Both the position numbers and the translations under genes were made by a program. From a virus, in IMG/VR virus record IMGVR_UViG_3300025168_000032, positions 1 through 64,000 of that record: a stretch of DNA of 64,000 nucleotides; one strand, given 5' to 3'. This document shows positions 3,561 to 23,746 of this stretch, piece by piece; the stretch's first letter is position 1; each line of letters begins with the position of its first letter. Under the pieces are notes generated by a model. That model ran no database searches. It had not been told where the DNA came from and was given only the letters and a program-made list of their open reading frames with translations.

Positions 3561-3570
3561 GAGGTAAGAT

Positions 3571-4185: not shown

Positions 4186-4210
4186 CAAGACTATTGAGGA
4201 ATGTTATATT
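4182..4210 (+). promoter_or_regulatory. sigma70-type promoter with extended -10
   Basis: TTGACA (4182-4187), 17-nt spacer, TG-n, TATATT (4205-4210), upstream of ATG 4235. Confidence 0.8.
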
Positions 4211-4234
4211 GTATTTTAATAATGGAGAGTATTT

Positions 4235-4906: not shown

Positions 4907-5685
4907 TGCCTAAACATATATCTTATTCTGAACTTAAAACATGGGCTGAATGCCCAAGAAAACATAAAATTTCATACATTGATAGAATCAGGAGGTTTAA
5001 GGGAAATGAATATACTGCTTTTGGTCGCTCTATTCACGCTTTATGTGAGAATGCTGTACAGGGTACGCTTGATGAACGAGACTATGACGACTTCTTTGAT
5101 GAACATTTTGACAGAGAGTTGGACCAACTCGGTGAAGAACATCAGCGAAAAGACGATCTTATCACAGGAATGCGAGAGCAAGCAAAACGAATCTCTCCCC
5201 TCATCCTCCCAAAATTAGAGGAACATTATGGTAAATATCAGGTTATATCAGTCGAAGAAAATCTTTTTGAAAAAATAAATGATTTTTTACTTGACAAATA
5301 TGATTTTAAAGGTTATATTGATTTAGTGATTAAAACGTCTGACGGAAAATATCACATAATTGATTGGAAGTCGTGTTCTTGGGGCTGGGATGCTAAAAAG
5401 AGAAGTGATAAACTCATAACATATCAATTAACCTTGTACAAAAAATTCTTTTGTCAAAAACACAAGATTGATCCGGCTATGGTTGAGACTCATTTCGCTC
5501 TCCTCAAGAGAACCGCAAAGAAGGAAAATGTTGAAATATTTAGAGTTACATCGGGTTCTAGAAAAACAAACAATGCAAAAGATTTGTTGGTTCAAGCCCT
5601 TGCTAATATTAAAAACAAAAATTATGTTAAAAACCGACTCTCCTGTCAAGGTTGTGAATTCTATAAGACGGTCCATTGTCCATAG
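4906..5685 (+). CDS. PD-(D/E)XK nuclease, Cas4/RecB/AddB-like
   Basis: ISYSELKTWAECP, GYIDLV...IIDWKS, QLTLY and C-terminal CQGCEFYKTVHC (four-Cys Fe-S-type arrangement). Confidence 0.85.
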   Translation: MPKHISYSELKTWAECPRKHKISYIDRIRRFKGNEYTAFGRSIHALCENAVQGTLDERDYDDFFDEHFDRELDQLGEEHQRKDDLITGMREQAKRISPLILPKLEEHYGKYQVISVEENLFEKINDFLLDKYDFKGYIDLVIKTSDGKYHIIDWKSCSWGWDAKKRSDKLITYQLTLYKKFFCQKHKIDPAMVETHFALLKRTAKKENVEIFRVTSGSRKTNNAKDLLVQALANIKNKNYVKNRLSCQGCEFYKTVHCP

Positions 5686-9456: not shown

Positions 9457-10195
9457 ATTTATTATAGTAACTCCCCTTTACAACGTGGAGAAGTGGGTAA
9501 AATATTGCATCACCAGCGTGATGAAGCAGAAATATGATAATTACGAACACTATGTCATTGATGATATTTCGACAGACCAGACAAATTCAATAATCAAGAA
9601 ATGTTGTGACAAGAGTGATAAACTAAATTTGGTAACAAATACGGAGAAAAAGTATGCTCTTAAAAACATTCATGATACTTTGGAATCACTAGACCTTGAT
9701 GACAACGATATAATTGTTATACTTGACGGTGATGACTGGTTAGCGAGCGACCAAGTACTACAGAAATTAAACAACATCTATAAACAACAAGATTGCTGGA
9801 TGACGTATGGGTCTTATGTTGAATATCCTTCGAATCAGCGTGGTAAATTTTCTAAGAAGATCCCCAATCAGATTATAGACAATTCGTTGTACCGGGAAAG
9901 CGCTTGGATGTCATCTCATTTACGTACTTTTAGATATAAGCTTTGGAAAAAGATAAATAAGCAAGATTTTATAAACCCGAAAACAAACAAATTTATAAAG
10001 GCAGCATGGGATTTGGGATTTGTTTTTCCCATGTTGGAGATGGCTGGAAAGAAAGCATTTTATGTTGAGGATATATTGTATATATACAATAGAGATAATC
10101 CGCTAAACGAAGACAAGGTGGATCACAGTAAGCAGTTAAATGAAGAGTCATATGTCAGAAGCAAGAAGAAGTATCAACTACTGAAGGAGTTATAA
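9446..10195 (+). CDS. Glycosyltransferase family 2
   Basis: IVTPLYNVEKW, VIDDISTD and ILDGDDWL (DXD). Confidence 0.92.
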   Translation: MNNKFIIVTPLYNVEKWVKYCITSVMKQKYDNYEHYVIDDISTDQTNSIIKKCCDKSDKLNLVTNTEKKYALKNIHDTLESLDLDDNDIIVILDGDDWLASDQVLQKLNNIYKQQDCWMTYGSYVEYPSNQRGKFSKKIPNQIIDNSLYRESAWMSSHLRTFRYKLWKKINKQDFINPKTNKFIKAAWDLGFVFPMLEMAGKKAFYVEDILYIYNRDNPLNEDKVDHSKQLNEESYVRSKKKYQLLKEL

Positions 10196-11793
10196 TGCTT
10201 ATATGTGGATTGTACAATAGCCATGATACATCATTCGCTATTTTGGAAAATGGCAAAACCATATTACACGTTGAGTTGGAAAGATATATTAGACAGAAAC
10301 AACCAATAGGCGATGCCTTTCAGTTGTTGATAAACGATTATCCTGAATTCAAAAAGATAAAATACTTTGTTGAAATACTGGACCCAACACACCAAACACA
10401 AAAAAAGACCCCTTACGCGCACCAGATGATTAAGAATATAGTAGAATCAAATGGCGGTGAGTACTATGTTTGTGGGCACCATCAGTCTCACGCTGCAAAT
10501 GCTTTTTATTCTAGTAACTTTAAAGATGCGTTGATTGTAACAATTGACGGTGGCGGCCGAGATATAATTGAAAACGTCGACAAGATATTAACATCTACTA
10601 CGTGGGTTGGAAAAGGTAACAATATAACAATTATAAAACATGCCGTTGAGTCACAATTTAATATAGGCTCTACGTGGAATATATTTACGACGAATATCTT
10701 TGGTTTATCCGGTGGGTGGCCAAAGGGAGATCAGGCAGGTTCTGTTATGGCAATGGCATGCATGGGAGACCCAAACAAATATTATGATGACGTGGCATCC
10801 TTACGATTTGAAAGATACGCTTATTGGAACAAAGAGAAGATACAAACATTCAACAAGCTGGCGAAAATAGCCAATGGAAGTGAGCAAAACAAATTTGATA
10901 TCGCTGCCGCCTTGCAAAAATACACAGAAGACTTTTTGTTTACACTAATTGGCGGTTTGCTAAAAGAGACAAAACAAAGAAACATATGCCTCAGTGGGGG
11001 TGTCGCTTTAAATTCCGTTATGGTTGGGAAATTGTATTCTGTATTTGAAAAAGAGATTGATAATATCTATGTTTGTCCTGTGCCTTATGACGCTGGGCTA
11101 TGTATCGGAGCAGCGCAATATGTGTGGCATCAAGTCCTAGGGAACGATAGAATAGAACATATCAATAACTCTTCTCCGTATCTAGGAATAGATTACACAA
11201 AACAGCAGATTCTTGATTCTTTGAGCTTATATGACAACGTATCGACATACGAAAAACAAAACCAGACTCACGTTTTAGGTCTCTTGTCAGAATCTAAAAT
11301 AATTTCTTTGTTTTGCGGAAAATCAGAATCAGGTAGAAGGGCTCTGGGGAACAGAAGCATAATAGCTGACCCAAGAAACCCAGAAATGAAAGACACTATA
11401 AATCAAAAAGTTAAACATAGACAATGGTATAGACCATTCGCACCTTCTATTATGCGTGAGCATGTGTCTGAGTGGTTTGAAAGGGACATCGATAGTCCCT
11501 ATATGAGTAAGGTTATTAATTTTAAACCGGAGATGGGTAAGAAGGTGCCCGCTGTAAACCACTTCAATGGATCAGCAAGACTACAAACAGTCACAGAGCA
11601 AGACAATAAGCTTTATTACAATTTGCTGAAAGAGTGGAATGAGATATCTGGTGTTCCAATATTGCTAAATACAAGCTTTAATGATAGGGAGCCGATTGTC
11701 GAAACACCCAACGATGCAATTAAGTGTTTTTTAAATACCGATATAGATCATTTATACTTTTTGGAGTACGAGTTGCTGGTGAGTAAAAAATGA
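10195..11793 (+). CDS. O-carbamoyltransferase (NodU/CmcH/TobZ family)
   Basis: HHQSHAANAF, SGGVALN, GRRALGNRSI, RPFAPS, SARLQTV and LLNTSFN. Confidence 0.95.
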   Translation: MLICGLYNSHDTSFAILENGKTILHVELERYIRQKQPIGDAFQLLINDYPEFKKIKYFVEILDPTHQTQKKTPYAHQMIKNIVESNGGEYYVCGHHQSHAANAFYSSNFKDALIVTIDGGGRDIIENVDKILTSTTWVGKGNNITIIKHAVESQFNIGSTWNIFTTNIFGLSGGWPKGDQAGSVMAMACMGDPNKYYDDVASLRFERYAYWNKEKIQTFNKLAKIANGSEQNKFDIAAALQKYTEDFLFTLIGGLLKETKQRNICLSGGVALNSVMVGKLYSVFEKEIDNIYVCPVPYDAGLCIGAAQYVWHQVLGNDRIEHINNSSPYLGIDYTKQQILDSLSLYDNVSTYEKQNQTHVLGLLSESKIISLFCGKSESGRRALGNRSIIADPRNPEMKDTINQKVKHRQWYRPFAPSIMREHVSEWFERDIDSPYMSKVINFKPEMGKKVPAVNHFNGSARLQTVTEQDNKLYYNLLKEWNEISGVPILLNTSFNDREPIVETPNDAIKCFLNTDIDHLYFLEYELLVSKK

Positions 11794-12617
11794 TATCTTG
11801 TGTTTTAAAAGGCGGGCTGGGAAACCAAATGTTCCAAATAGCTGCTGTCGTAAACCTTGCGGTTGAAAATAAAATAGCATTTTGTTTTGACCAGAATACG
11901 TGGCCCCCAATGGGAGGCGCAGGCGGAGAAGCTTTCCAAGCATCCCCTCCAACTAAATACTTAAAGAATGTATTTCGAAAATTACCTTTTAAAGATATTA
12001 AATCTAAAAACTTATTCATGGTCTATAACGAGCCTAGCTTTCATTACACTGAGATTCACCCAAGACAAAACATGCTGTTAAATGGGTACTTCCAATCTGA
12101 ACGTTATTTCGAAAAGAATGCAGAGATTATAAAGAAGGTTTTCTCCCCTCCAAAAAGCATTATCAATGATTTTAACAATAGATTTGTTAAAGAGTTTCCT
12201 GATTGTCAGTTTGTCTCTATACATGTTCGAAGGGGTTCCCACCTGAAAAACCCGCATTATCATGGATCGTGTGACAGTGAATATTTTAATGAGTCCATTA
12301 AGAGGTTTGATCAGACTGTAAAATTCTTAGTTTTTAGTGATGATATGGATTGGTGCCAAGATAACTTTCATGGAGATAATTTCCTGTTCGTAGAAAACCA
12401 GAAAGACTACGAAGACCTCTATTATATGTCGTTGTGCCATCACAACATAATATGCAATAGTACATTTAGTTGGTGGTCAGCATGGCTGAATACGAATGAA
12501 GGCAAAATTATTATAAGTCCAAAGAAGTGGTTTGGGCCCGGCTACTCCGGGCATAATCTGTCAGACATGGTCCCACCCGAGTGGGAAATCATTGATAATG
12601 GTCTGGAAGGGGAGTGA
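11790..12617 (+). CDS. GT11 alpha-1,2-fucosyl/colitosyl-transferase
   Basis: GGLGNQMFQ, SIHVRRG, FSDD and NSTFSWWSAWL. Confidence 0.93.
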   Translation: MISCVLKGGLGNQMFQIAAVVNLAVENKIAFCFDQNTWPPMGGAGGEAFQASPPTKYLKNVFRKLPFKDIKSKNLFMVYNEPSFHYTEIHPRQNMLLNGYFQSERYFEKNAEIIKKVFSPPKSIINDFNNRFVKEFPDCQFVSIHVRRGSHLKNPHYHGSCDSEYFNESIKRFDQTVKFLVFSDDMDWCQDNFHGDNFLFVENQKDYEDLYYMSLCHHNIICNSTFSWWSAWLNTNEGKIIISPKKWFGPGYSGHNLSDMVPPEWEIIDNGLEGE

Positions 12618-13447
12618 ACTTGAACGATCACCGCTTTAACAAGTTGGAAAAGAGATATTATGATTTCTATCTAAAGAACAGAAAACAAGCAAGCCAACAA
12701 TTCATGGATAAGATATCTATAAATTCTGGTTTAGTTGGCCACTTGCACCTCCTGAAGGCCAACGGATATGTACAGATACCCCCAGAGTCTTTAAGCATTA
12801 AAGATGACTTGGGTGAAATACGAAGGCAGGTTTGTGATTACTATTCCGAAAACGACACAAGGGTTCTAAAGAACCCTTTTGGGATTAATGGGTTGTATGA
12901 ATTGGTAAAAAAAACACTGGTCCCTATCGCTTGTTGTTATTACAAGTGTGTACCAACAATAAGCTATATAAAGGTAATAAAATCCTATGCTTCAAACGAC
13001 CCAAAAGACACACAGTTTTTTCATAGAGATCCGGGTTCATACAAATTATTAAAAGCGGTTATTTATTTAAACGATGTTGATGCGTTTGGCGGCCCTTTGG
13101 TATATGTACAAAATTCCAACAAAGAAGACCTAAGTGGGATATCGGGCAGAGAAAGAATAAAAGATAAAGAAGTAAAGCAAAAATATAACAAGAAAATAAA
13201 AGAAATAATCGGACCGTTAGGTCAAGTAACTTTCTTTGATGCTAAAGGGGTACACAAGGGGAAGCTGCCAACCCGAAGAGACAGAATTGCAATAATAGTT
13301 AATTTTTCTCTTCACCCTGAATACGGACAGAAAGATAACTATAATAAAATTACTTACAACATAACAGATGGTTATAGTGATTTCGACTTAATGCTTTTAG
13401 ATTCTTGTGTGCCCATATTCGGAGTAAAAGATGAAAATAAAAGTTAA
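12614..13447 (+). CDS. Fe(II)/2-oxoglutarate oxygenase (phytanoyl-CoA dioxygenase-like)
   Basis: FHRD (HxD), AVIYLNDV...GGPLVYV, distal His in GVHKG and a following Arg. Confidence 0.8.
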   Translation: MNLNDHRFNKLEKRYYDFYLKNRKQASQQFMDKISINSGLVGHLHLLKANGYVQIPPESLSIKDDLGEIRRQVCDYYSENDTRVLKNPFGINGLYELVKKTLVPIACCYYKCVPTISYIKVIKSYASNDPKDTQFFHRDPGSYKLLKAVIYLNDVDAFGGPLVYVQNSNKEDLSGISGRERIKDKEVKQKYNKKIKEIIGPLGQVTFFDAKGVHKGKLPTRRDRIAIIVNFSLHPEYGQKDNYNKITYNITDGYSDFDLMLLDSCVPIFGVKDENKS

Positions 13448-14276
13448 CTTATTTGATGTTTTGACAAACCATAGCAAACCAGCGTATGGCTTTAGAACAT
13501 TCAGTCCCTTTGTGGAACCAAAGTGTATAGATTATCTTGATGGTGGTCAAGATGTATCGGTATATACAGACAAAAGCTTAAATAGAGAAAATGTACTTAG
13601 AGACCCTGCCAAAGTTAAAGTCGCTTGGCTAGTGGAGTGTAGGGAAGTACACCCCTTTGCTTATGAACAGGTGCTTCGTCTTGAAAATCTGTTTGATTAC
13701 ATATTCACTTTTGACGAAGAATTACTGAACTTGGGTGACAAGTATATAAAAACCCCAATAGCATCAAGTAGGATTATAGATAGGCATTCCAAGATTTACA
13801 AAAAAAGAAAAAACACTTCCATGATAGTTTCTAAGAAATCATGGTGTTCCGGGCACAAATACAGACACGAAATAGTATCAAAGCTAAAGAATACTCACTT
13901 ATTGGATCTTTGGGGAGAAGCCTTTAAACCAATGCCACAAGGAGCCAAAATACTAGCGTTAGCAGAGTATAGATATTCAATAGTGGTAGAGAACTCTAAA
14001 GGTAAAAACTATTTTACTGAAAAACTTATTGATTGCTTTAGGACGGGAACAATACCAATTTATTGGGGATCTAGCGCCATCACCGAACACTTTAATATGG
14101 GCGGTATAATCTGTTTTGATACAATTAAAGATTTAGACGATTTAATCCCGTCTTTAACGGAAGATAGATATGGCACAATGATAGAAGCATTAAGAGAAAA
14201 TTACAAGCTAGCCAGTAAGTGGACTTCCATGGATGACACATTTGCAAACAATTTAAAGGAGATTACAAATGGATAG
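13431..14276 (+). CDS. GT10-like (alpha-1,3/4-fucosyltransferase-like) glycosyltransferase
   Basis: YRYSIVVENS...YFTEKLIDCF..GTIPIYWG. Confidence 0.8.
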   Translation: MKIKVNLFDVLTNHSKPAYGFRTFSPFVEPKCIDYLDGGQDVSVYTDKSLNRENVLRDPAKVKVAWLVECREVHPFAYEQVLRLENLFDYIFTFDEELLNLGDKYIKTPIASSRIIDRHSKIYKKRKNTSMIVSKKSWCSGHKYRHEIVSKLKNTHLLDLWGEAFKPMPQGAKILALAEYRYSIVVENSKGKNYFTEKLIDCFRTGTIPIYWGSSAITEHFNMGGIICFDTIKDLDDLIPSLTEDRYGTMIEALRENYKLASKWTSMDDTFANNLKEITNG

Positions 14277-14685
14277 AAAATATTTACCAACACTTTCAGA
14301 GTTGATCGACAGGCTTTCAATAGCTCAATTGAAAGAGGTCTTTATAACAAAACACAAAGAGGAGTATGCTCAAGAAATTTCTGATATTTTACATGATATA
14401 GACTTGACACTAAAGGAAAAAGATGTTATATTAGATAGTAATAGTGTAAGGGCAATTGTTGTCTTGTCTCAAATGAATTTACATATTTGGCATAACGAGT
14501 CAAATTATAGAAAAGGCATAAAAGACGGAAACAACCTTGAACTTACACACGGTCTCAATGGAATTAGAAACACTGCTAAAAACAAAATACAAGAGTTAGC
14601 GGGCGGCAGAAAAGATTATAAGATTGATTGTTTGGCGGCAGAGTTTAAAGATTGGGAGATAAGCTGGGATAAAGATGAAGATTGA
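14269..14685 (+). CDS. Helical hypothetical protein within the glycan island
   Basis: 138-aa ORF overlapping both neighbours, beginning LPTLSELIDRLSIAQLKE. Confidence 0.8.
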   Translation: MDRKYLPTLSELIDRLSIAQLKEVFITKHKEEYAQEISDILHDIDLTLKEKDVILDSNSVRAIVVLSQMNLHIWHNESNYRKGIKDGNNLELTHGLNGIRNTAKNKIQELAGGRKDYKIDCLAAEFKDWEISWDKDED

Positions 14686-15160
14686 CAATATCGATGGTGT
14701 TAAAATAGTTGAGCCTGATTATTTTACTGATTATAGAGGCGACCTGTGGACCTTGTGGAAAAGTGGTGATCACGGTTTGAGCTTCAATCATGATAAGGTA
14801 TCTACCTCTAGAAGGAACGTGCTACGGGGAATCCATGGGGATTCCAAATCGTGGAAGCTGGTCACTTGCTTGTATGGTGACCTTTATTTCGTCTTAGTCG
14901 ACAACCGAGAAGATTCGCCTACGTATATGAAATACCAGTCCATGATTTTGGACTCGAAAAAGAGAAAGCAGGTGCTAATCCCTCCAAGCGTGGGAAACGG
15001 TTTTGTAGTGTTGAGCCACAATTCCGTCTTTCATTATAAGTGGGCATATCCGGGAACCTATCCCGATGTAGATCAGCAGTTTACAATAAAATGGGATGAC
15101 CCTCGTTGTAACATTAACTGGCCAATTAGCAACCCGATATTACAACTAAGGGATAAATAA
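14675..15160 (+). CDS. rmlC: NDP-4-keto-6-deoxyhexose 3,5-epimerase (RmlC cupin family)
   Basis: DYRG, NVLRGIHG, KLVTCLYG, QVLIPPSVGNGF and WDDP..NINWP. Confidence 0.9.
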   Translation: MKIDNIDGVKIVEPDYFTDYRGDLWTLWKSGDHGLSFNHDKVSTSRRNVLRGIHGDSKSWKLVTCLYGDLYFVLVDNREDSPTYMKYQSMILDSKKRKQVLIPPSVGNGFVVLSHNSVFHYKWAYPGTYPDVDQQFTIKWDDPRCNINWPISNPILQLRDK

Positions 15161-15792
15161 TGATTTTGCAAATACCAAAACATTTAGAGAAAGTTAGAGA
15201 GGTTACGATAACAGAGCAGGAATTGATTAATTTTGAATCAAAAGTTCGTGATACTTATGAAGCTGGTAAGATAAGAGGGCCAATTCATTTAGCTGGAAAT
15301 AACGAAAAGCAATTATTGGAAATTTTTCAATACATAAACAAGGACGATTGGGTCTTTGTTCCGTGGAGAAACCATTATCACGCCTTGTTGCATGGTGTTG
15401 ATCCTGAGAAGCTTTTTGATTGGATTTTGGAAGGAAGGAGTATGGGAACAAACAACACCAATCCTAACTTTTATTCATCGTCTATAGTGGGTGGTATAAT
15501 TCCTATTTCTGTTGGCACAGCCATGGGGTTGAAACTGAAGAATTCTCCAAATCGTGTATGGTGCTTTGTAGGTGACATGACGATGGAAACTGGTGGGTTT
15601 CATGAAGCATATAAATACGTTAAGAACTTTGATCTACCACTACAGTGGGTAATCGAGGATAACGATATGAGTGTCCATACCCCGACTGAAATGGCTTGGG
15701 GAAAAAAACAAGAAACACCAGACGGAGTTGTATATTACAAATACGAGATGGGATATCCCCATCACGGAACAGGAAAGTGGGTGAATTTTTAA
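15160..15792 (+). CDS. ThDP-dependent E1 alpha-like subunit (short form)
   Basis: GPIHLAGNNE, RNHYHAL, SSIVGG and ThDP motif GDM-x26-DN. Confidence 0.88.
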   Translation: MILQIPKHLEKVREVTITEQELINFESKVRDTYEAGKIRGPIHLAGNNEKQLLEIFQYINKDDWVFVPWRNHYHALLHGVDPEKLFDWILEGRSMGTNNTNPNFYSSSIVGGIIPISVGTAMGLKLKNSPNRVWCFVGDMTMETGGFHEAYKYVKNFDLPLQWVIEDNDMSVHTPTEMAWGKKQETPDGVVYYKYEMGYPHHGTGKWVNF

Positions 15793-15794
15793 TC

Positions 15795-16340
15795 ATGAAA
15801 GAAAAGAGATATAAAAAAGAAATAATAAGAGCAATGAACTGGTTAGCAGAGAAAGACAACACGATCTTTTTAGGCCAAGCCTGCAAAGTAAGCGGTCATG
15901 CCATTTCAAGCACAATTCAAGAAGTACCTATTGAAAAAAGGATCGAATTGCCGGTGTTTGAGGAAACCCAAATGGGAATCTCCACAGGTGTTGCATTAGA
16001 AGGTTTTGTTCCTATAACGATGTATCCAAGGTTTGACTTTTTTATTTTAGCATGCAATCAGCTTGTTAACCATCTAGATAAGATGAACGATATGTCCAAG
16101 GGAGAGATGCTACCTCGTGTAATCATACGAGTATCAGTTGGGTCGAAGAGTCCAATAGATGCAGGCCCCCAACATACTCAGAACCACACCGAGGCTTTGA
16201 GAAAGATGTTGACAGATGTTCATGTAGTGGAATTAACAGAAGCTGACCAAGTGTTTCCAGCTTTCGTAGAGGCTTATGAGAGAAAAGATTCTAAGTCAAC
16301 TTTGATTGTAGAGCATGGAGAGTATTATGGGACAAAATAA
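15795..16340 (+). CDS. ThDP-dependent E1 beta-like subunit (pyrimidine-binding domain only)
   Basis: LPVFEETQMG, YPRFDF..LACNQLVNH and GPQHTQ. Start moved to ATG15795 just after the alpha-subunit stop (track start 15696). Confidence 0.88.
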   Translation: MKEKRYKKEIIRAMNWLAEKDNTIFLGQACKVSGHAISSTIQEVPIEKRIELPVFEETQMGISTGVALEGFVPITMYPRFDFFILACNQLVNHLDKMNDMSKGEMLPRVIIRVSVGSKSPIDAGPQHTQNHTEALRKMLTDVHVVELTEADQVFPAFVEAYERKDSKSTLIVEHGEYYGTK

Positions 16341-17493
16341 GTTTTCTTGGCCACTTATCAACGATAACATAACCCAGAAAGATAAGGAAGTGCTATCGGA
16401 TTTTATATTGAACACAAACAGATTCACGAACGGTCCCAAAGTCAAAGAGTTCGAGAAAGCGTGGTCTGAGTGGTTGGGTGTTAAGTATAGCGTGATGGTT
16501 GGTTCTGGTGCTGCTGCGAATTATATTACAACATCGATTGTTCGCGAGAAAAAGGGCCAAAAGGGCGAGATTATTGTACCTCCTATAGGATGGGTCTCCG
16601 ATGTGTCTTCTGTCATAAATACCGGCTTTACGCCCGTTTTTGTTGATGTCGACTTGGATACGATGGCAATTTCTTACGAGAATATCAAAAACGCGATCAA
16701 TAAAAATACAAAGGCTATTGTTTTAGTTCACGTTTTGGGATTCAACGGCATCAACGACAAGATTATTAAACTAGCTAAAGAAAACGATTTACTACTGATA
16801 GAAGATTGTTGCGAATCACACGGTGCGACACACAACGGTAACAAGGTCGGAACCATGGGAGATATGTCCTGTTTTTCATTTTATTTTGGCCATCACATGA
16901 CAACTATTGAGGGCGGTATGGTGTGCACAAACGATGAAGATATATACGAGTTTGCAAGAATGTTTAGATCCCATGGGATGACCAGAGAGGCTTCACTTGA
17001 AACTCAGAAAAAATATGCAAAGCCAGATGTCAATCCTTTGTTTACATTTGCAGTCCCCGGATACAACATGAGAAGCACCGAGCTTAATGCTGTGTTAGGC
17101 CTAGAGCAAATTAAAAGACTTGATGATAATATTAATACTAGATGTAATAATCTGGTAACGTGGGTTTCGAATCTAGATCCTGAGCTTTATTACGTTAATT
17201 TTCTAATGGATGGTAGTAGTAATTACGCTTTACCCCTGATATTGAATTACAATAATAAGAATATGAAATTAGTTTGTAGCATTCTGGAAAGCGAAGGAGT
17301 GGAGTACAGACTTGGTACTGCCGGTGGTGGCAACCAAGCAAGACAACCTTATTTAGAAAGGTACGAATATTCTGTGGTAGGGAAGATGAATAATACAAAT
17401 TATATACATGATTACGGTTTGTATATTGGGAACCACCCGGAATTAACTAAAAAACAAATTATAAATTTATGTGGGAGACTTAATGATGTTTGA
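16327..17493 (+). CDS. PLP-dependent DegT-family enzyme, ColD-like GDP-4-keto-6-deoxymannose 3-dehydratase
   Basis: EDCCESHGA, FSFYFGHHMTTIEGG (His at the usual Lys position) and RSHGMTR. Start at ATG16327 behind GGAGAG. Confidence 0.8.
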   Translation: MGQNKFSWPLINDNITQKDKEVLSDFILNTNRFTNGPKVKEFEKAWSEWLGVKYSVMVGSGAAANYITTSIVREKKGQKGEIIVPPIGWVSDVSSVINTGFTPVFVDVDLDTMAISYENIKNAINKNTKAIVLVHVLGFNGINDKIIKLAKENDLLLIEDCCESHGATHNGNKVGTMGDMSCFSFYFGHHMTTIEGGMVCTNDEDIYEFARMFRSHGMTREASLETQKKYAKPDVNPLFTFAVPGYNMRSTELNAVLGLEQIKRLDDNINTRCNNLVTWVSNLDPELYYVNFLMDGSSNYALPLILNYNNKNMKLVCSILESEGVEYRLGTAGGGNQARQPYLERYEYSVVGKMNNTNYIHDYGLYIGNHPELTKKQIINLCGRLNDV

Positions 17494-18445
17494 AAATAAA
17501 AAGGTTCTAGTCACAGGCGGAACTGGTATGATTGGTAGAGAGTTGGTAAACCTTTTGACTGCTCGTGGCGCTAAGGTGTTCATTTGTAGCCTAGACCAGC
17601 CAAAGGATATTCCGGAGGGTGTTTCTTTTGTATTTAAAGACTTAAGATACTTATCAAATTGCCTTGAGGTATGTAAGGGTATGGATTATGTTTTTAATTG
17701 TGCAGGAGTTAAGGGCTCCCCAAAGATGTGCATGGAGCAACCAGCAGACTTCTTTGTTCCAATGGTGCAGTTTAATACCAACATGATGCAAGCTGCCTTT
17801 GAGAATGATGTAGAGTGGTATTTATACACTTCTAGTGTCGGCGTGTACCACCCGGCTGAAGTCTTTAAAGAAGACGATGTATGGATGACTATGCCTTCTA
17901 AGAACGATTGGTTTGCCGGTTGGGCAAAACGCATGGGAGAATTACAAGCTAAAGCTTATTCTATTCAGCACGGGTGGGATAAAGTGTCTATTGTAAGACC
18001 AGCTAATGTTTACGGATCATATGACAACTTTGACCCCGACAACGCAATGGTTATTCCAGCTTTAATAAGAAAAGCATTCGAGAATGACAAGTTGAGTGTT
18101 TGGGGCGATGGGTCTCCAATAAGAGACTTTATTCATGCTAGAGATGTCGCATTGGGTATGATCCATATGGTAGAAAACAAGTTCACAAAACCAGTGAATT
18201 TGGGGTCCGGGGAGGGCATTAAGATCAAGCGTATAGCCGAAGCGATAGCAAACTATTTCGATAAAGAAATAGAGTGGGATGTTTCTAAGCCAACTGGCGA
18301 TGCTAGGCGGGTATTTGATATGACACGAGCAAAATCCTGTGGTTTCGAACCATCTGTGTCAATTGAAGAAGGAATAAGTGAAACCATTGAATGGTTTTTA
18401 GAAAACAAAGAAAACATAGATAAGAGATTTAATGCGTTCAAATAA
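17483..18445 (+). CDS. Extended SDR, GDP-fucose synthase/GDP-mannose epimerase-like
   Basis: TGGTGMIG, RPANVYG, VIPALIRK and WGDGSPIRDFIH. The YxxxK position reads AGWAK. Confidence 0.85.
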   Translation: MMFENKKVLVTGGTGMIGRELVNLLTARGAKVFICSLDQPKDIPEGVSFVFKDLRYLSNCLEVCKGMDYVFNCAGVKGSPKMCMEQPADFFVPMVQFNTNMMQAAFENDVEWYLYTSSVGVYHPAEVFKEDDVWMTMPSKNDWFAGWAKRMGELQAKAYSIQHGWDKVSIVRPANVYGSYDNFDPDNAMVIPALIRKAFENDKLSVWGDGSPIRDFIHARDVALGMIHMVENKFTKPVNLGSGEGIKIKRIAEAIANYFDKEIEWDVSKPTGDARRVFDMTRAKSCGFEPSVSIEEGISETIEWFLENKENIDKRFNAFK

Positions 18446-19148
18446 TATACTAATAACAGGAGTCAACAGTGGATTGGGCAAATATATTCACAACCATATT
18501 AAAGGGTCCGTGGGTCTGCATAGGCAAAACCTAGGCGCTGTGCTCTCCTGTTCATCTATCGACACAATTATACATTGTGCTTTCGATGCGAAAAGAGAGA
18601 TAAATGACCACTATCAGTATTTTAATGATAATCTCTATCTCACAAAACAATTACTGGGGATGCCGCATCAAAAATTTATTTATGTATCATCTGTAGATGT
18701 TTATCGAGAAGAGCAATCATACTATAAGTTGATGAAACTTATGGCCGAATCTATAGTAAAAAACGAGAGTAAAAACTACATCATCGCAAGATGTTCAGCG
18801 ATGCTTGGAGAAGGAATGAGGAAAAACACTTTGGTAAAATTATCAGAAAAGAACCTTTTAAAAACTGGGCTTTCAAGTAAGTCTACTTTTAATTATGTTT
18901 TATATGAAGACATTTTGTCTTTTTTTAACAAGTCTATTGAAAATAATCTATCTGGTGTTTATAATTTGGTATCAAGATCCAACATATCTTTATCAGAGAT
19001 CGGTGAGCATTTTGAATATTATCCAAAATATGGAGATTTTCTATATAATACCCCTGTGGTAGAAAACAATATCCCATCTGATCTTTCCTCAATGGGACAA
19101 AGAACGTCACTTCAAAATATAAAGAGGTTTATAAAACAAAATGACTAA
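18432..19148 (+). CDS. Short NAD(P)-dependent epimerase/reductase (SDR)
   Basis: ITGVNSGLG, SSVDVY and YKLMK (YxxxK). Confidence 0.8.
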   Translation: MRSNNILITGVNSGLGKYIHNHIKGSVGLHRQNLGAVLSCSSIDTIIHCAFDAKREINDHYQYFNDNLYLTKQLLGMPHQKFIYVSSVDVYREEQSYYKLMKLMAESIVKNESKNYIIARCSAMLGEGMRKNTLVKLSEKNLLKTGLSSKSTFNYVLYEDILSFFNKSIENNLSGVYNLVSRSNISLSEIGEHFEYYPKYGDFLYNTPVVENNIPSDLSSMGQRTSLQNIKRFIKQND

Positions 19149-20091
19149 AAAGAAAATTTTAATTTGTGGAGCAACAGGGTTTATTGGAAAAAATTCCTTA
19201 GAACGCTTCACACGGAGAGAAGACTACGAAATAAGAGCAGTTTATCACATTAAGCCGCCTCTTAAAGAATATGATGTTGAGTGGGTCCAAGCTGATCTAA
19301 ACAATATAGAAGATGTTAAAAGAGTTATAAAGGGGATGGATATTGTACTACAGTTAGCTGCAACTACCTCTGGTGCAAATGATATTATTAATCGTCCGTA
19401 TATTCATGTTACTGATAACGCTGTTATGAATTCTCTGCTTCTACGAGAGGCATTTGAGAACGATATAAAGCATTTTATTTTTCCAAGCTGCACAGTCATG
19501 TACCAGCCGAATAGAGTTGCAACTAAAGAAAGTAATTTTGATGGAAATCAAAGGCTATTGTCTAAATACTTTGGCGTTGGCAACACCAAAGTGTATATCG
19601 AAAAAATGTGTGATTTTTATGGCACCTTGGGTAAAACAAAACACACAGTATTAAGACAGTCCAATATTTACGGCCCTCATGACAAATATGATCTGAAGAA
19701 AAGCCATGTCTTCGGCGCGACCATAACCAAGGTTATGACCAACGACGAAAAAATTAATGTTTGGGGACCCGGAACCGAAACAAGAGACTTTTTATATGTT
19801 GATGATCTTTTGAACTTTGTAGAAATGGCTCTTGAAAAACAAGAATCCATGTGTGAGGTTTTTAATGTTGGCTGTGGATATGAGGTTTCGATCAAAGAGT
19901 TGGTTGAAAAGATTATTAAAATTTCCGGCAAAGATCTTAAGATGGAACATGACCTCAGCAAACCTCATATTCCGACAAAACTCTTTCTAGATTGCACAAA
20001 AGCTAAGGAAATGCTCGGATGGGAACCAAAGGTATCTTTAGAGGAAGGTATTAAAAGAAGTATTGATTGGTGGAAGGCCAATAATGACTAG
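19141..20091 (+). CDS. Extended SDR, GDP-L-fucose synthase (Fcl/ColC)-like
   Basis: CGATGFIG, FPSCTVMY, SNIYGPHD, SHVFGA and WGPGTETRDFLYVDD. The YxxxK position reads VGNTK. Confidence 0.85.
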   Translation: MTKKKILICGATGFIGKNSLERFTRREDYEIRAVYHIKPPLKEYDVEWVQADLNNIEDVKRVIKGMDIVLQLAATTSGANDIINRPYIHVTDNAVMNSLLLREAFENDIKHFIFPSCTVMYQPNRVATKESNFDGNQRLLSKYFGVGNTKVYIEKMCDFYGTLGKTKHTVLRQSNIYGPHDKYDLKKSHVFGATITKVMTNDEKINVWGPGTETRDFLYVDDLLNFVEMALEKQESMCEVFNVGCGYEVSIKELVEKIIKISGKDLKMEHDLSKPHIPTKLFLDCTKAKEMLGWEPKVSLEEGIKRSIDWWKANND

Positions 20092-21091
20092 GGCTTTTAT
20101 AACCGGAATCACTGGAATGGTCGGGTCACACCTTGTTGATTTTCTATTCAAAAATACAGATTGGGATATTTATGGCTTAGTTCGATGGGATGACAGGATG
20201 GATAACCTTGAGCATTTAATGAATTATATAAATGGAAAACATAGAATTCGTTTGGTTTATGGTGATATAAACGACCTAAGTTCTTTGTTGACAGCCTTTG
20301 GTTCAAGCAAGCCAGACTATGTTTTCCATTTAGCCGCACAAAGTTATCCGAAAACCAGCTTTGATTCTCCTTTGGAGACGTTGGAGACTAATATTCTGGG
20401 AACTGCAAAAGTTTTAGACGCGATAAGACACCTGAAATTAGAACCGACAATACATGTTTGTGCCTCGTCGGAAGTTTTTGGAAGGGTTCCAAAAGAGTTT
20501 CTACCAATTCACGAGGATGTAACATTCCACCCAGCGTCACCGTATGCAATTTCAAAGGTTGGGACAGATTTGGTTGGTAGATTTTACGCTGAGGCATATG
20601 GAATGAAGGTTATGACTACTCGTATGTTTACACATACAGGCCCAAGGCGTGGTGATGTTTTCGCTGAATCCACTTTTGCTAAGCAGATAGCAATGATTGA
20701 GGCAGACTTAATACCGCCAATATTGAAAGTAGGCAACTTAAAATCCCTAAGAACTTGGTCAGATGTTAGGGATGCGGTTAGGGCATATTACAGCTTGGTA
20801 ACAGTGAATCCAATAGCCGGGGAATACTATAATATTGGTGGATCATATACCTGTTCTATCGAGGACATGTTGAATTATTTATTAAGCAAATCTACCGTTA
20901 GCACCATTCAGGTGAGAGTGGACCCCGATCGTTTGAGGCCAATTGACGCAGACTTGCAGGTACCTGACACCACTAAGTTTAGAAACCACACTGGCTGGGA
21001 GCCAACTATTCCTTTCGAAAAAACTATGGATGATCTTTTAGAATATTGGAGAGGGAAAGTAAAGTCAGGTAGTAATTTTTTATCAAGGTAA
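20084..21091 (+). CDS. gmd: GDP-mannose 4,6-dehydratase
   Basis: ITGITGMVGSHL, HLAAQS, ASSEVFG, SPYAISK and GNL...R.WSDVRD. Start moved to ATG20084. Confidence 0.88.
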   Translation: MTRAFITGITGMVGSHLVDFLFKNTDWDIYGLVRWDDRMDNLEHLMNYINGKHRIRLVYGDINDLSSLLTAFGSSKPDYVFHLAAQSYPKTSFDSPLETLETNILGTAKVLDAIRHLKLEPTIHVCASSEVFGRVPKEFLPIHEDVTFHPASPYAISKVGTDLVGRFYAEAYGMKVMTTRMFTHTGPRRGDVFAESTFAKQIAMIEADLIPPILKVGNLKSLRTWSDVRDAVRAYYSLVTVNPIAGEYYNIGGSYTCSIEDMLNYLLSKSTVSTIQVRVDPDRLRPIDADLQVPDTTKFRNHTGWEPTIPFEKTMDDLLEYWRGKVKSGSNFLSR

Positions 21092-21095
21092 CACA

Positions 21096-21833
21096 ATGAA
21101 ATCAGATATTTTAGTTATTGGCGAAACATGTACCGATGTTTTTTATTATGGGGAGTGTGACAGGCTTTGTCCAGAGGCCCCAGTGCCAGTATTTGTTCCA
21201 ACTGAAATAATAAAGACACCCGGCATGGCAATGAATGTTCAAAAAAACATACAATCTTTATATGGAAGTTGCGATATACATACGAATACCAACTGGAAAG
21301 ACATAACAAAAACAAGGTTTATCCACCTCAATACTAATCAAATGTTTGTGAGAGTTGACGAGAATGATCACACTGTAAAGAGATGCGATGTAAGCAAGGT
21401 TGATTTAAATAAATACAAGATTGTTGTCATTTCAGATTATTGTAAAGGCTTTTTAACCGAGAGTGACATCAGTTATATATCTGATAATCATAATTGTGTT
21501 TTCTTGGACACAAAGAAGGTTTTAGGAGATTGGTGTACTGGGGTGAGGTTCATAAAAATTAATCATTATGAGTACAACAAGTCCAAGGATAGAATACCAG
21601 AAAACGTAAAAGACAAATTAATAGTAACTTTGGGCCCCAAAGGTTGCAAATACAAGGATAAGGTATATCCTGTAAGAAGGGTCGACATAAGGGATGTTTC
21701 GGGTGCGGGTGACACTTTCCTCTCTGGGCTTGTGGCCGAGTATCTAAGAACATCGAATATAGAATCTTCTATAAGTTATGCTAACGAGTGTGCTACAATA
21801 GCAGTACAAAAAAAAGGGGTCACTGTAATATGA
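21096..21833 (+). CDS. PfkB-family sugar kinase, HldE/RfaE kinase-domain-like
   Basis: RLCPEAPVPV, KTRF...Q...RVD, ISDYCKG and DVSGAGDTF. Confidence 0.9.
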   Translation: MKSDILVIGETCTDVFYYGECDRLCPEAPVPVFVPTEIIKTPGMAMNVQKNIQSLYGSCDIHTNTNWKDITKTRFIHLNTNQMFVRVDENDHTVKRCDVSKVDLNKYKIVVISDYCKGFLTESDISYISDNHNCVFLDTKKVLGDWCTGVRFIKINHYEYNKSKDRIPENVKDKLIVTLGPKGCKYKDKVYPVRRVDIRDVSGAGDTFLSGLVAEYLRTSNIESSISYANECATIAVQKKGVTVI

Positions 21834-22219
21834 AAGTTATTTGGGTAAATGGTTGTTTTGATATTCTACACCGAGGCCATGTAGAGTTATTTAAGTATGC
21901 CAAATCACTGGGAGAGTTTTTGGTGGTAGGTATTGATGGGGACAAGAGAATCAAAGAAACCAAGGGCCCCGAAAGGCCCGTTAACAATCGTCGAGATCGA
22001 CAATTCTTTCTTGAATCAATCAGATATATCGACGAGGTGGTCGCTTTTGATAATGATACAGAGCTTGAAAATTGGATCGAGTTTTTTCAACCAGACGCGC
22101 TAGTTGTCGGTGTCGAGTATAAAACTAAGGGAGTCATTGGTTCAGAGCATGCAAAAAAAATTGAATATTTTGATCGAGTAGGAGAATATTCAACAACAAA
22201 CATATTGGAGAGAAAATGA
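21830..22219 (+). CDS. Heptose-1-phosphate nucleotidyltransferase-like (HldE C-domain/HldC)
   Basis: NGCFDILHRGH (HxGH), KGPERP and C-terminal STTNILER. Start at ATG21830 (ATGA overlap). Confidence 0.9.
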   Translation: MKVIWVNGCFDILHRGHVELFKYAKSLGEFLVVGIDGDKRIKETKGPERPVNNRRDRQFFLESIRYIDEVVAFDNDTELENWIEFFQPDALVVGVEYKTKGVIGSEHAKKIEYFDRVGEYSTTNILERK

Positions 22220-22533
22220 CATATGTAATAGACATAGATGGGACCATTTGTACAAATACGGATGGGGATTACAAGAACGCGAAACCCATTGTAGAGAGAA
22301 TAAACAAAATCAACAAATTATACGACGATGGCAACATTATATATTTTTTGACTGCAAGGGGTATGGGGAGATTTAATAACAATTCCGAATTGGCAACTCA
22401 TAGCTTTCTATCCTTAACAAAGCAACAGCTAGACAGTTGGGGAGTGAAATATCATGAGTTATTTATGGGTAAGCCCTCTGGTAACTTGTATATAGATGAC
22501 AAGGGGGTGAAAGATGAAGACTTTTTTATCTAA
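22216..22533 (+). CDS. Small HAD-superfamily phosphatase
   Basis: DIDGT, LTARG, GKP and YIDDK. Confidence 0.88.
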   Translation: MTYVIDIDGTICTNTDGDYKNAKPIVERINKINKLYDDGNIIYFLTARGMGRFNNNSELATHSFLSLTKQQLDSWGVKYHELFMGKPSGNLYIDDKGVKDEDFFI

Positions 22534-22879
22534 TGATATTAAATTTGTACCAAAAGGGTGGGGATTTGAAAAGTGGATTGTGAACTGCGAAGAGTATTGT
22601 GGAAAGCTTTTGTATTTTGTGAAAGGCAAGAAGTGTTCGTGGCATTACCACAAGCTTAAGGACGAAGTTTTTTATATTCAGTCTGGCGCGATTACGCTTT
22701 CCTATTCAGACGATGATGACTTGGGGAATGCCAAAAAGGTAATTTTGCAAAAAGGAGATAGATTTCACATCTATAGGGGATTGAGGCATCAAATGTATGC
22801 TATGGAAGACACAGAACTGTTTGAGTTTTCAACTCAACATTTTGATAGCGATAGCCATAGGGTTATAAAGGGAGATTAA
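22514..22879 (+). CDS. Cupin (sugar-phosphate isomerase-like)
   Basis: KGWGFEKW, SWHYHKLKDEVF, LRHQM and EFST.HFD.DS.R. Confidence 0.85.
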   Translation: MKTFLSNDIKFVPKGWGFEKWIVNCEEYCGKLLYFVKGKKCSWHYHKLKDEVFYIQSGAITLSYSDDDDLGNAKKVILQKGDRFHIYRGLRHQMYAMEDTELFEFSTQHFDSDSHRVIKGD

Positions 22880-23746
22880 ATGAAAACAGTATTAGTCACA
22901 GGTGGTTGTGGTTTTATAGGAAGCAATTTGGTAGATATCTTGGTAAAGCAAGGTAACAGAGTGGTAGTCATAGATGACCTATCAGACGGAAAAAAAGAAA
23001 ACTGCAACAGGTTAGCTAAATATTATTTTGATGATTTTAAAAAGATCCTAACAAATGGTCTTGATGAGAGCATAGATACTATTTTTCATTTAGCTGCTGA
23101 GGCAAGAATACAACCATCTTTCAAAAAACCATTATACACTTGTGAAAACAATTCATATGGAACAGCAATTGTGTGCGAATATGCAAGAAATAACAACTGC
23201 ATGGTCGTATATGCTGGGTCAAGTTCGTTTTACGGTGGCGTTTACCTTAACCCATATGCTTTTGCAAAATGGCAAGGGGAAGAGGTTGTAAAGATGTACA
23301 CTAATGTTTATAATATAAAATCTGGTATTGCTAGATTTTTTAATGTATATGGACCTAGAAACCCGTTGATCGGTCAGTATACCCCTGTAGTCGCCATATT
23401 CGAGCAACAATATAGTAATAATGTACCTCTGACAGTGGTAGGTACAGGTGAACAAAGAAGAGACTTTACGCATGTATACGACATATGTAACGGATTAATA
23501 GCGATATCCAAGAAGGATAGAGAAGCCTCAATATTTAATTTGGGAACTGGCACCAACCACTCTATCAATGAACTGGCAGATATGTTCGGCAGGGAAAAGA
23601 AGCATCTACCAGCCAGACCCGGAGAGGCGAAAGAGACAAGAGCAGATATATCTAACTCCATAAAGGTTCTTGATTGGGCCCCGGAGCACAAATTAGAAAC
23701 ATATATAAATAATTTTTTAAAGGAGACAAAAAATGAAATTAAGTAA
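22880..23746 (+). CDS. NAD-dependent epimerase (GalE/HldD-like SDR)
   Basis: VTGGCGFIGSNL, HLAA, PYAFAK (YxxxK), RFFNVYGP and RRDFTHV. Confidence 0.9.
   Translation: MKTVLVTGGCGFIGSNLVDILVKQGNRVVVIDDLSDGKKENCNRLAKYYFDDFKKILTNGLDESIDTIFHLAAEARIQPSFKKPLYTCENNSYGTAIVCEYARNNNCMVVYAGSSSFYGGVYLNPYAFAKWQGEEVVKMYTNVYNIKSGIARFFNVYGPRNPLIGQYTPVVAIFEQQYSNNVPLTVVGTGEQRRDFTHVYDICNGLIAISKKDREASIFNLGTGTNHSINELADMFGREKKHLPARPGEAKETRADISNSIKVLDWAPEHKLETYINNFLKETKNEIK

What the first reader, a model, noticed from the sequence alone, without database searches (positions are those of the whole stretch)
14675..21091. Candidate GDP-linked branched-chain 3,6-dideoxy sugar pathway (yersiniose-like logic) in a phage
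Seen: one run of RmlC-like epimerase, short E1 alpha, E1 beta, ColD-like enzyme, three SDRs and Gmd, with no E2 or E3. Established: Gmd then ColD gives GDP-4-keto-3,6-dideoxymannose; ThDP enzymes add a pyruvate-derived C2 unit to 4-keto sugars in yersiniose A (YerE, then reductase YerF) and avilamycin eurekanate (AviB1/AviB2, E1 alpha/beta-like). Inference: the phage makes a 4-C-acetyl or 4-C-(1-hydroxyethyl) 3,6-dideoxyhexose on GDP rather than CDP. I know of no described viral example, but novelty is unverified.
Basis: partly seen in the sequence, partly recalled or inferred. Interest (0 to 1): 0.85.

Follow-up and report, generated by a model that had tools for sequence, protein, structure and literature searches.

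The report
Phage operon for branched dideoxy-heptose
A large marine phage carries a tightly packed operon that probably turns a seven-carbon nucleotide sugar into a 3,6-dideoxy-4-keto sugar and then adds a two-carbon branch with a stripped-down two-subunit thiamine enzyme. This enzyme family is common in phages and bacterial surface-sugar loci, and I found no report that it has been tested.

Summary
Two corrections apply. The 'Gmd' is far closer to the Campylobacter jejuni GDP-heptose 4,6-dehydratase (368 bits) than to any GDP-mannose dehydratase (at most 141 bits). The RmlC-like gene likewise matches C. jejuni GDP-heptose epimerases. HldE-like heptose kinase, nucleotidyltransferase and phosphatase genes follow directly. 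The sugar is therefore most likely a heptose, and its nucleotide carrier is unresolved.

The DegT enzyme has His at the catalytic Lys position, like ColD. The E1 pair is minimal: alpha is 210 aa and beta is 181 aa, beta is a Pyr domain only, and the ThDP motif and catalytic Glu are intact. The record has no E2, lipoyl domain or YerE-type enzyme.

The pair recurs in at least 185 viral contigs and in bacterial O-antigen or capsule loci. It usually sits with RmlC-like and SDR genes, and every adjacent DegT gene is of the His type. Natural alpha-beta fusions exist.

C2 branching at C4 is the best-supported role, by analogy with AviB1/B2 and KbDH, but it is inferred and not shown. This scan has flagged the same cassette on other DNA.

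The parts
14269..14685 (+). 138-aa helical protein of unknown function (u138), the most conserved companion of the module in phages
   Evidence: Found in 54 of 80 viral loci at a median 79% identity. Alignment A3 has 33 invariant columns. The AF2 model (pLDDT 82.5) is a helical bundle with no informative structural match.
14675..15160 (+). RmlC-fold epimerase of the GDP-heptose 3/5-epimerase type
   Evidence: PF00908, 1.9e-36. Best solved matches are C. jejuni GDP-4-keto-heptose 3,5- and 3-epimerases at 158-162 bits, against at most 77 bits for dTDP RmlC.
15160..15792 (+). Minimal E1 alpha-like subunit (PP domain, 210 aa) with a GDM...N ThDP/Mg motif
   Evidence: PF00676 and TIGR03182. It aligns to human E1 alpha residues 48-211 only. 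D139 is nearly invariant and N168 invariant across 36 family members.
15795..16340 (+). Minimal E1 beta-like subunit (Pyr domain only, 181 aa); the transketolase-C/E2-binding domain is absent
   Evidence: PF02779 only. The start was fixed at the ATG at 15795. E56, the Glu of the P-V-x-E-E motif, and H127, in a G-P-Q-H motif, are invariant in 35 sequences.
16315..17493 (+). ColD-type PLP/PMP 3-dehydratase (His replaces the Schiff-base Lys)
   Evidence: Best solved match is ColD 2gms at 201 bits. The motif G-H-H-M-T-T aligns with ColD S-H-H-I-A-T, and the mutant entry 3b8x marks the first His. The sequence has no C-x-C pattern.
17471..18445 (+). Fcl-like extended SDR (SDR1) without the canonical catalytic Tyr
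   Evidence: Best solved match is E. coli GDP-fucose synthase at 127 bits. Fcl Tyr136, Cys109 and His179 are replaced. In the family, Lys153 is invariant and the residue four positions before it is Ala or Pro. Present in 69 of 80 viral loci.
18432..19148 (+). Short SDR (238 aa) with a canonical Ser/Tyr-x3-Lys triad; candidate ketoreductase
   Evidence: Weak Pfam Epimerase match. S86, Y98 and K102 are invariant in 15 orthologues.
19141..20091 (+). Fcl/GalE-like SDR (SDR3) with unusual Tyr-x6-Lys spacing
   Evidence: Y143, K150 and H189 (the position of Fcl His179) are invariant in 34 orthologues.
20063..21091 (+).
   Evidence: [quoted passage not shown] It falls below the TIGR01472 gmd cut-off (166 bits against 415). 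The Y-A-I-S-K motif is present.
21096..21833 (+). HldE domain I-like heptose-7-phosphate kinase (PfkB fold)
   Evidence: TIGR02198, 117 bits, below its cut-off; PF00294.
21788..22219 (+). HldE domain II-like heptose-1-phosphate nucleotidyltransferase, ending in S-T-T-N-I-L-E-R
   Evidence: TIGR02199, 118 bits, below its cut-off. Sequence. The STT-x4-R motif is linked to CDP/UDP-heptose synthesis in PMC11461863.
22216..22533 (+). Small HAD-type capsule-biosynthesis phosphatase-like protein (candidate heptose bisphosphate phosphatase)
   Evidence: TIGR01689, 52 bits, below its cut-off.
22514..23746 (+). Cupin (121 aa) plus a canonical SDR (288 aa); resembles a split CapF-like epimerase/reductase
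   Evidence: The cupin model (pLDDT 93) best matches D-lyxose isomerases and the cupin domain of S. aureus CapF. The SDR has a Y-A-F-A-K motif. The cupin-SDR pairing is also seen in L001.

Best explanation
The run from about 14269 to 23746 is one phage operon that makes an unusual nucleotide-activated sugar for the glycosyltransferases encoded just upstream.

Proposed route:
1. An HldE-like kinase, a small phosphatase and an HldE-like nucleotidyltransferase activate D-glycero-D-manno-heptose. The nucleotide is unknown.
2. The 4,6-dehydratase gives NDP-6-deoxy-4-keto-heptose.
3. The ColD-type enzyme removes the C3 hydroxyl, giving NDP-3,6-dideoxy-4-keto-heptose.
4. The RmlC-fold enzyme epimerises next to the keto group.
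5. The minimal E1 alpha/beta pair decarboxylates pyruvate on ThDP and adds the resulting hydroxyethyl carbanion to the C4 ketone, making a 4-C-acetyl tertiary alcohol.
6. One of the SDRs reduces the branch to 1-hydroxyethyl.

Shown here: gene identities, the His-for-Lys change, the heptose-type affinities, the truncation of both E1 subunits, the absence of E2 and lipoyl domains, and the conserved synteny. Inferred: the substrate of the E1 pair, pyruvate as donor, the order of steps, the roles of the individual SDRs, and the final acceptor.
For: -
- Heptose-type dehydratase: 368 bits against at most 141 bits for any GDP-mannose dehydratase. Heptose-type epimerase: 162 bits against at most 77 bits.
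- ColD-type His.
- C. jejuni makes GDP-3,6-dideoxy-heptose with exactly these four enzyme types: dehydratase, PLP 3-dehydratase, epimerase and reductase (PMC10440746).
- The E1 pair keeps its ThDP/Mg ligands and the cofactor-activating Glu, but lacks the alpha C-terminal third and the beta C-terminal domain.
- The record has no E2, lipoyl domain or YerE-type enzyme.
- Natural alpha-beta fusions exist: P0141, P0182 and P0235.
- In 80 viral loci, E1 alpha co-occurs with E1 beta in 76, RmlC-like in 71, SDR1 in 69, ColD in about 36 and the heptose-type dehydratase in about 43.
- Every DegT gene adjacent to the pair has His at the Lys position. This includes cellular loci such as a Caulobacter MAG, where the pair lies in a Wzm/Wzt polysaccharide cluster with a GHMP kinase, and Bacteroidales, Pelagibacteraceae and CPR genomes.
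- Precedent: E1-type alpha/beta enzymes (AviB1/B2, Pau11/12, KbDH) install pyruvate-derived C2 branches on keto-sugars (PMC4425429 and PMC12247030).
Against: - No member of this short family has been assayed.
- Known sugar-branching E1-type enzymes are full length (Pau11 is 325 aa and Pau12 is 345 aa), so the homology argument is indirect. I could not place the phage pair relative to them in a tree.
- In about half of the related phage loci the pair occurs without ColD or a heptose-type dehydratase within 10 kb. 3-Deoxygenation is therefore not obligatory for its function.
- The activation genes are of the ADP/CDP/UDP beta-heptose type, while the tailoring enzymes resemble GDP alpha-heptose enzymes. 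This mismatch is unresolved.
- Two of the three SDRs have non-canonical catalytic motifs, so the reduction steps are uncertain.
Confidence: 0.5

Rival explanations
1. The operon makes an ordinary unbranched 3,6-dideoxy- or 6-deoxy-heptose, as C. jejuni HS:5 does. The E1 pair then does something other than branching this sugar, for example supplying an acyl or hydroxyethyl unit for a different substituent, or acting on another intermediate.
For: All four enzyme types of the characterised HS:5 route are present (PMC10440746). The canonical short SDR, or the SDR4-cupin pair, could serve as the C4 reductase. The E1 pair also occurs in loci without ColD.
Against: The E1 genes lie between the epimerase and the 3-dehydratase, with a 1-nt overlap and a 2-nt gap. 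They keep this company across phages and bacteria. No other acceptor pathway is evident.
Confidence: 0.2
2. One reading: host GDP-mannose is converted by Gmd and ColD to GDP-4-keto-3,6-dideoxymannose, which the E1 pair branches to an eight-carbon, yersiniose-like hexose. The adjacent HldE-like genes would feed a separate ADP-heptose pathway.
For: ColD itself and the Fcl-like SDRs belong to GDP-hexose families. GT10- and GT11-like transferases lie upstream. The phage has no GDP-heptose-forming enzyme. C. jejuni heptose 3-dehydratases are 62-67% identical to hexose ColD, so specificity is not readable from sequence.
Against: The dehydratase scores 368 bits to the heptose enzyme and at most 141 bits to any GDP-mannose dehydratase, and it fails the gmd model cut-off. 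The epimerase is likewise of heptose type. The dehydratase is contiguous with the heptose kinase and nucleotidyltransferase here and in a differently ordered locus.
Confidence: 0.13
3. The ThDP pair performs different carbon-carbon chemistry on a sugar. Options include branching at another position, using a donor other than pyruvate, or DXS/transketolase-like chain extension or cleavage.
For: E1-type enzymes branch at C3 in some antibiotics. The alpha subunit also shows weak DXP-synthase and transketolase similarity. The loci are diverse; some contain B12-radical SAM enzymes.
Against: After ColD action C3 carries no oxygen, so C4 is the only ketone available. According to PMC12247030, known E1-type sugar branchers are restricted to C2 units from pyruvate.
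Confidence: 0.1
4. The pair is an auxiliary metabolic gene that works with the host E2/E3 as an ordinary 2-oxoacid dehydrogenase E1.
For: Source annotations call homologues 'pyruvate dehydrogenase E1 alpha'. The beta His of the Q-H motif is conserved.
Against: Beta lacks the whole C-terminal domain and alpha lacks its C-terminal third. The genes are embedded in a sugar operon. The genome has no E2 or lipoyl domain. The family sits in polysaccharide loci in bacteria.
Confidence: 0.03

Closest known systems
E1-type (alphaKADH2) sugar C-branching enzymes of actinomycete antibiotic pathways: AviB1/AviB2, Pau11/Pau12, AlmDI/DII, KbDH-alpha/beta
   Same: Two-subunit PDH-E1-like ThDP enzyme with no E2 or E3, encoded among deoxy-keto-sugar genes. 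The proposed role, shown in vitro for KbDH on analogues, is to add a pyruvate-derived C2 unit to a sugar ketone (PMC4425429, PMC12247030).
   Different: The phage subunits are about one third and one half shorter (210 and 181 aa, against 325 and 345 aa). Beta has no C-terminal domain. The context is a phage or cell-surface glycan operon, not an antibiotic cluster. The likely substrate is a heptose. Direct sequence comparison with these enzymes could not be made.
Yersiniose A pathway (CDP-glucose 4,6-dehydratase, E1/E3 3-deoxygenation, YerE, YerF)
   Same: The same chemical logic: a 3,6-dideoxy-4-keto nucleotide sugar receives a C2 unit from pyruvate through ThDP, and the side chain is then reduced (PMC9306805).
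   Different: YerE is a single-chain flavoprotein of the decarboxylase superfamily, and no such gene is in this phage. Deoxygenation here is ColD-type (no Fe-S, no E3). The sugar is probably a heptose, and the carrier is not shown to be CDP.
C. jejuni HS:5/HS:11 GDP-3,6-dideoxy-heptose pathway
   Same: A heptose 4,6-dehydratase, a PLP-dependent C3-dehydratase, an RmlC-fold epimerase and SDR reductases. The phage dehydratase and epimerase have these enzymes as their closest solved relatives.
   Different: C. jejuni has no ThDP enzyme and activates heptose as the GDP alpha-anomer through HddA/HddC. The phage has HldE-type genes. Its Fcl-like SDRs are only distantly related to the C. jejuni C4-reductases.
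GDP-colitose pathway (Gmd, ColD, ColC)
   Same: A ColD-type His dehydratase and Fcl-like SDRs; GT11- and GT10-like transferases are nearby.
   Different: The dehydratase is not a Gmd. Additional E1 pair, RmlC-fold epimerase and heptose activation genes are present.

Membership tests
E1-type (alphaKADH2) sugar-branching ThDP enzymes | Alpha subunit PP domain with a GDG-x(25-30)-N ThDP/Mg motif | tested here: met
   The motif is G-D-M ... E-D-N, with D139 nearly invariant and N168 invariant in 36 family members.
E1-type (alphaKADH2) sugar-branching ThDP enzymes | Beta subunit Pyr domain with the cofactor-activating Glu | tested here: met
   PF02779 match. E56 in the P-V-x-E-E-x-Q-M-G motif is invariant in 35 sequences.
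E1-type (alphaKADH2) sugar-branching ThDP enzymes | Full-length E1 architecture (alpha about 325 aa; beta about 345 aa with a C-terminal domain) | tested here: not met
   Alpha is 210 aa and beta is 181 aa with a Pyr domain only. Pau11 and Pau12 are 325 and 345 aa.
E1-type (alphaKADH2) sugar-branching ThDP enzymes | Encoded with keto-sugar-forming enzymes and without E2/E3 | tested here: met
E1-type (alphaKADH2) sugar-branching ThDP enzymes | Pyruvate-dependent C2 transfer to a sugar ketone | not testable with these tools
   Needs an enzyme assay.
ColD-type 3-dehydratase | His in place of the PLP-binding Lys; no Fe-S cysteine motif; ColD as nearest relative | tested here: met
   The first His of H-H aligns to ColD His188. 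ColD scores 201 bits against 150 bits for the Fe-S enzyme 3bcx. The cysteines at 165, 166, 186, 204, 277, 321 and 386 form no C-x-C pattern.
GDP-mannose 4,6-dehydratase (Gmd) | Score above the equivalog cut-off, with Gmd as nearest characterised relative | tested here: not met
   TIGR01472 scores 166 bits against a cut-off of 415. The nearest solved relative is the heptose dehydratase at 368 bits, against at most 141 bits for any GMD.
NDP-heptose 4,6-dehydratase (DmhA/WcbK type) | Close similarity to the characterised enzyme, an SDR Tyr-x3-Lys motif, and adjacency to heptose activation genes | tested here: met
   Substrate use itself is not testable here.
2-oxoacid dehydrogenase complex E1 | Beta C-terminal domain for E2 binding, and E2, E3 or lipoyl partners | tested here: not met
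   There is no Transketolase_C match. PF00198 and PF00364 are absent from the record.
YerE-like branching enzymes (decarboxylase superfamily) | Single chain with TPP_enzyme_N, M and C domains | tested here: not met
   PF02776 has no match in the whole record.
HldE-type heptose kinase / nucleotidyltransferase | Scores above the rfaE domain I and II cut-offs | tested here: inconclusive
   These are the best families but both fall below cut-off: 117 bits against 345, and 118 against 181.5. The STT-x4-R motif is present. No GmhA is found in the record.

The most novel reading that the evidence does not exclude
Phages, and the marine and uncultured bacteria that share the cassette, make an undescribed nine-carbon sugar: a 4-C-acetyl or 4-C-(1-hydroxyethyl)-3,6-dideoxyheptose. 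They would do so with a new minimal class of E1-derived carboligase reduced to one PP and one Pyr domain. The carrier could be a non-GDP beta-heptose nucleotide made by an STT-x4-R nucleotidyltransferase. The Tyr-less Fcl-like SDRs and the phage-specific 138-aa helical protein would be dedicated partners.
Probability: 0.25. Interest if true: 0.8.

Novelty: new variant of a known kind. Interest (0 to 1): 0.6.

Why it matters
If the pair is a carboligase, it would be the smallest E1-derived ThDP enzyme known to make tertiary alcohols on sugars. It would also extend E1-type branching from actinomycete antibiotics to cell-surface and viral glycans, where only YerE-type enzymes are known.

The family is large: more than 2,400 proteins, 185 or more viral contigs, and SAR11-type, CPR, Bacteroidales and Caulobacter genomes. 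One assay would therefore annotate many genes that are now mislabelled as pyruvate dehydrogenase, and would point to an undescribed sugar on abundant marine microbes and their phages. Such a sugar could matter for phage receptors and surface variation.

Tried and rejected
- u138: Pfam, the protein Atlas, Foldseek against PDB and VIA-align wide gave only generic helical-bundle matches.
The single-protein scan worked.
- Two encoding-contig look-ups with tblastn match ranges found nothing, because these were not the exact gene products.
- No close DNA relative was found in the phage record collection.
- I could not obtain AviB1, Pau11 or KbDH sequences, so no tree against characterised branching enzymes was built.
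- The structure paper for the heptose dehydratase (PMC9623766) is not held, and one literature search was uninformative. The guanine-binding residues, and hence the nucleotide carrier, could not be checked.
- I considered the cupin as a substitute for the missing GmhA isomerase. Its fold matches both D-lyxose isomerases and the CapF epimerase domain, so this stays open.
- I rejected the cyanophage reading because the record has no psbA.

Full report
**Setting.** The window is the first 64 kb of a 185,652-bp virus record estimated to be 92% complete. Nearly all genes are on the + strand. It carries a T4-type baseplate wedge protein, PhoH and a cell-wall amidase, but no psbA. An island of glycan genes spans about 5.7-23.7 kb. 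It contains GT4, GT2, GT11-like and GT10-like transferases, a NodU-like carbamoyltransferase, and the run in question.

**Observation.** From the GT10-like gene to the last SDR, neighbouring genes overlap or are separated by at most 4 nt, so this is one translationally coupled run. The E1 beta-like gene starts at the ATG at 15795, 2 nt after the alpha stop codon, and encodes 181 aa. No E2 catalytic domain or lipoyl domain occurs anywhere in the record.

**The sugar is probably a heptose.**
[quoted passage not shown] It misses the gmd equivalog cut-off by a wide margin.
- The RmlC-fold protein scores 158-162 bits to C. jejuni GDP-4-keto-heptose 3- and 3,5-epimerases, against at most 77 bits for dTDP RmlC enzymes.
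- Directly downstream lie genes whose best families are the two halves of HldE (heptose-7-phosphate kinase and heptose-1-phosphate nucleotidyltransferase) and a small capsule-type phosphatase. All three score below the family cut-offs.
- In a differently arranged homologous locus (L001), the nucleotidyltransferase, kinase and dehydratase are again next to the RmlC-E1 alpha-E1 beta-DegT block.
- C. jejuni HS:5 makes GDP-3,6-dideoxy-heptose with exactly a 4,6-dehydratase, a PLP C3-dehydratase, an epimerase and a C4-reductase (PMC10440746).

**The 3-dehydratase.** The DegT-family protein is closest to ColD (201 bits). It has His-His where aminotransferases have the Schiff-base Lys; the H188N mutant entry pins the first His. 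It has no Fe-S-type cysteine pattern. It is the only DegT gene in the record.

**The nucleotide carrier is unresolved.** The phage has no ManC/HddC-type transferase and no GHMP kinase. Its only activating enzyme is HldE-like and ends in S-T-T-N-I-L-E-R. This is the Arg-containing motif reported to allow CDP- and UDP-heptose synthesis as well as ADP-heptose (PMC11461863). Against this, the tailoring enzymes and the GT10/GT11-like transferases belong to GDP-sugar families. No GmhA is encoded, so heptose-7-phosphate must come from the host or from an unrecognised isomerase.

**The E1 pair.**
- Alpha (210 aa) matches only the N-terminal part of E1 alpha, human residues 48-211. It keeps the Mg/ThDP ligands.
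- Beta (181 aa) is a Pyr domain alone, with the activating Glu and the Q-H histidine invariant.
- From general knowledge of E1 structures, which I did not test, the missing beta C-terminal domain is the E2-binding element, and the missing alpha segment carries the regulatory loops.
- The characterised sugar-pathway homologues Pau11 and Pau12 are full length, so this is a distinct, reduced form.
- Natural alpha-beta fusions of about 400 aa exist. These support the view that the two genes encode one enzyme.

**Distribution and company.**
- The short alpha has more than 2,500 relatives in metagenomes, many at 72-92% identity from marine samples. It forms 109 clusters at E below 1e-30 and occurs in at least 185 viral contigs.
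- In 80 fetched viral loci, E1 beta is present in 76, RmlC-like in 71, SDR1 in 69, the 138-aa protein in 54, a heptose-type dehydratase in about 43, ColD in about 36, and the kinase and nucleotidyltransferase in 19.
- Many loci read RmlC-E1 alpha-SDR-SDR-E1 beta with no ColD, often with a different canonical SDR of about 312 aa.
- A scan of GTDB genomes found 25 loci, some on contigs of 431-765 kb. In a Caulobacter MAG the pair lies in a Wzm/Wzt polysaccharide cluster with a true Gmd, an RmlC-like gene (59% identity to the phage gene), a GHMP kinase and a His-type DegT. Bacteroidales and Pelagibacteraceae genomes show E1 alpha-E1 beta-DegT(His)-SDR.
- Every DegT gene adjacent to the pair has His at the Lys position.

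**Mechanism.** The only ketone left after ColD action is at C4. E1-type alpha/beta enzymes are the accepted C2-branching catalysts for keto-sugars in avilamycin, paulomycin, aldgamycin and kibdelomycin. KbDH has been shown in vitro to couple pyruvate to cyclic ketone analogues (PMC12247030; PMC4425429). The YerE/YerF pathway shows the same logic on CDP-4-keto-3,6-dideoxyglucose (PMC9306805). I therefore rate C2 addition at C4 of a 3,6-dideoxy-4-keto-heptose, followed by reduction of the side chain, as the most likely function, with about 0.5 confidence for the whole statement. The branching step is inference.

**The SDRs.**
- SDR1 is Fcl-like but lacks the catalytic Tyr and the Fcl Cys/His pair. 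This holds across 56 family members, while the Rossmann motif, Ser and Lys are invariant.
- SDR3 has an invariant Tyr and Lys with unusual spacing, and keeps the Fcl His.
- The short SDR and SDR4 are canonical.
- Which of them reduces what cannot be decided from sequence.

**Prior notes.** Earlier AI notes of this scan describe the same cassette on other DNA, and some follow-ups reached a similar reading. I treated them as leads only. The heptose assignment, the synteny counts and the His check were made here independently. The paper searches run here named no phage-encoded ThDP sugar-branching enzyme.

Noticed in passing
window 14269-14685: A 138-aa helical protein is the most conserved member of the module in phages (median 79% identity, 33 invariant columns, many of them polar). 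It is almost absent from the cellular loci. It has no family and no structural match. It could be an accessory subunit or a regulator.
   Followed up: partly
window 22514-23746: A 121-aa metal-type cupin is directly followed by a canonical SDR. The cupin model matches D-lyxose isomerases and the cupin (C3-epimerase) domain of S. aureus CapF, which is an SDR-cupin fusion. The pair may be a split CapF-like epimerase/reductase, or the cupin may replace the missing GmhA isomerase.
   Followed up: partly
window 17471-18445 and 19141-20091: Two Fcl-like SDRs have conserved but non-canonical active sites. SDR1 has no Tyr four residues before the invariant Lys. SDR3 has Tyr-x6-Lys. Both travel with the E1 pair in most phage loci.
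   Followed up: partly
window 21788-22219: The HldE domain II-like nucleotidyltransferase ends in S-T-T-N-I-L-E-R, the Arg motif linked to CDP/UDP-heptose synthesis. The likely true start is the ATG at about 21827. The record has no SIS-type GmhA.
   Followed up: partly
proteins P0155, P0158, P0196 (relatives of E1 alpha): Some family members carry an intein or a LAGLIDADG insertion, and one is fused to an APH-type kinase domain. This is typical of genes that circulate in phages.
   Followed up: no
L008-L013, L017, L022, L035 (about 100-5400 in the loci): Closely related phages carry a second, longer His-type DegT paralogue (motif F-Y-P-A-H-H-M) next to another dehydratase-like SDR. This suggests a second deoxysugar route that is absent from this window.
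   Followed up: no
window 10195-14276: A NodU-like carbamoyltransferase, a GT11-like gene, an unassigned 277-aa gene and a GT10-like gene lie just upstream. The carbamoyltransferase co-occurs with the E1 pair in about 27 of 80 viral loci, and the GT10-like gene in the closest relatives. They are candidates for O-carbamoylation and transfer of the product.
   Followed up: no
L074:8498-9469, L081:12014-12949, L099:12508-13446: A canonical SDR of about 312 aa, 45-50% identical between phages and bacteria, accompanies the E1 pair where the window's SDR set is missing. It may be the conserved reductase or oxidase of the core module.
   Followed up: partly
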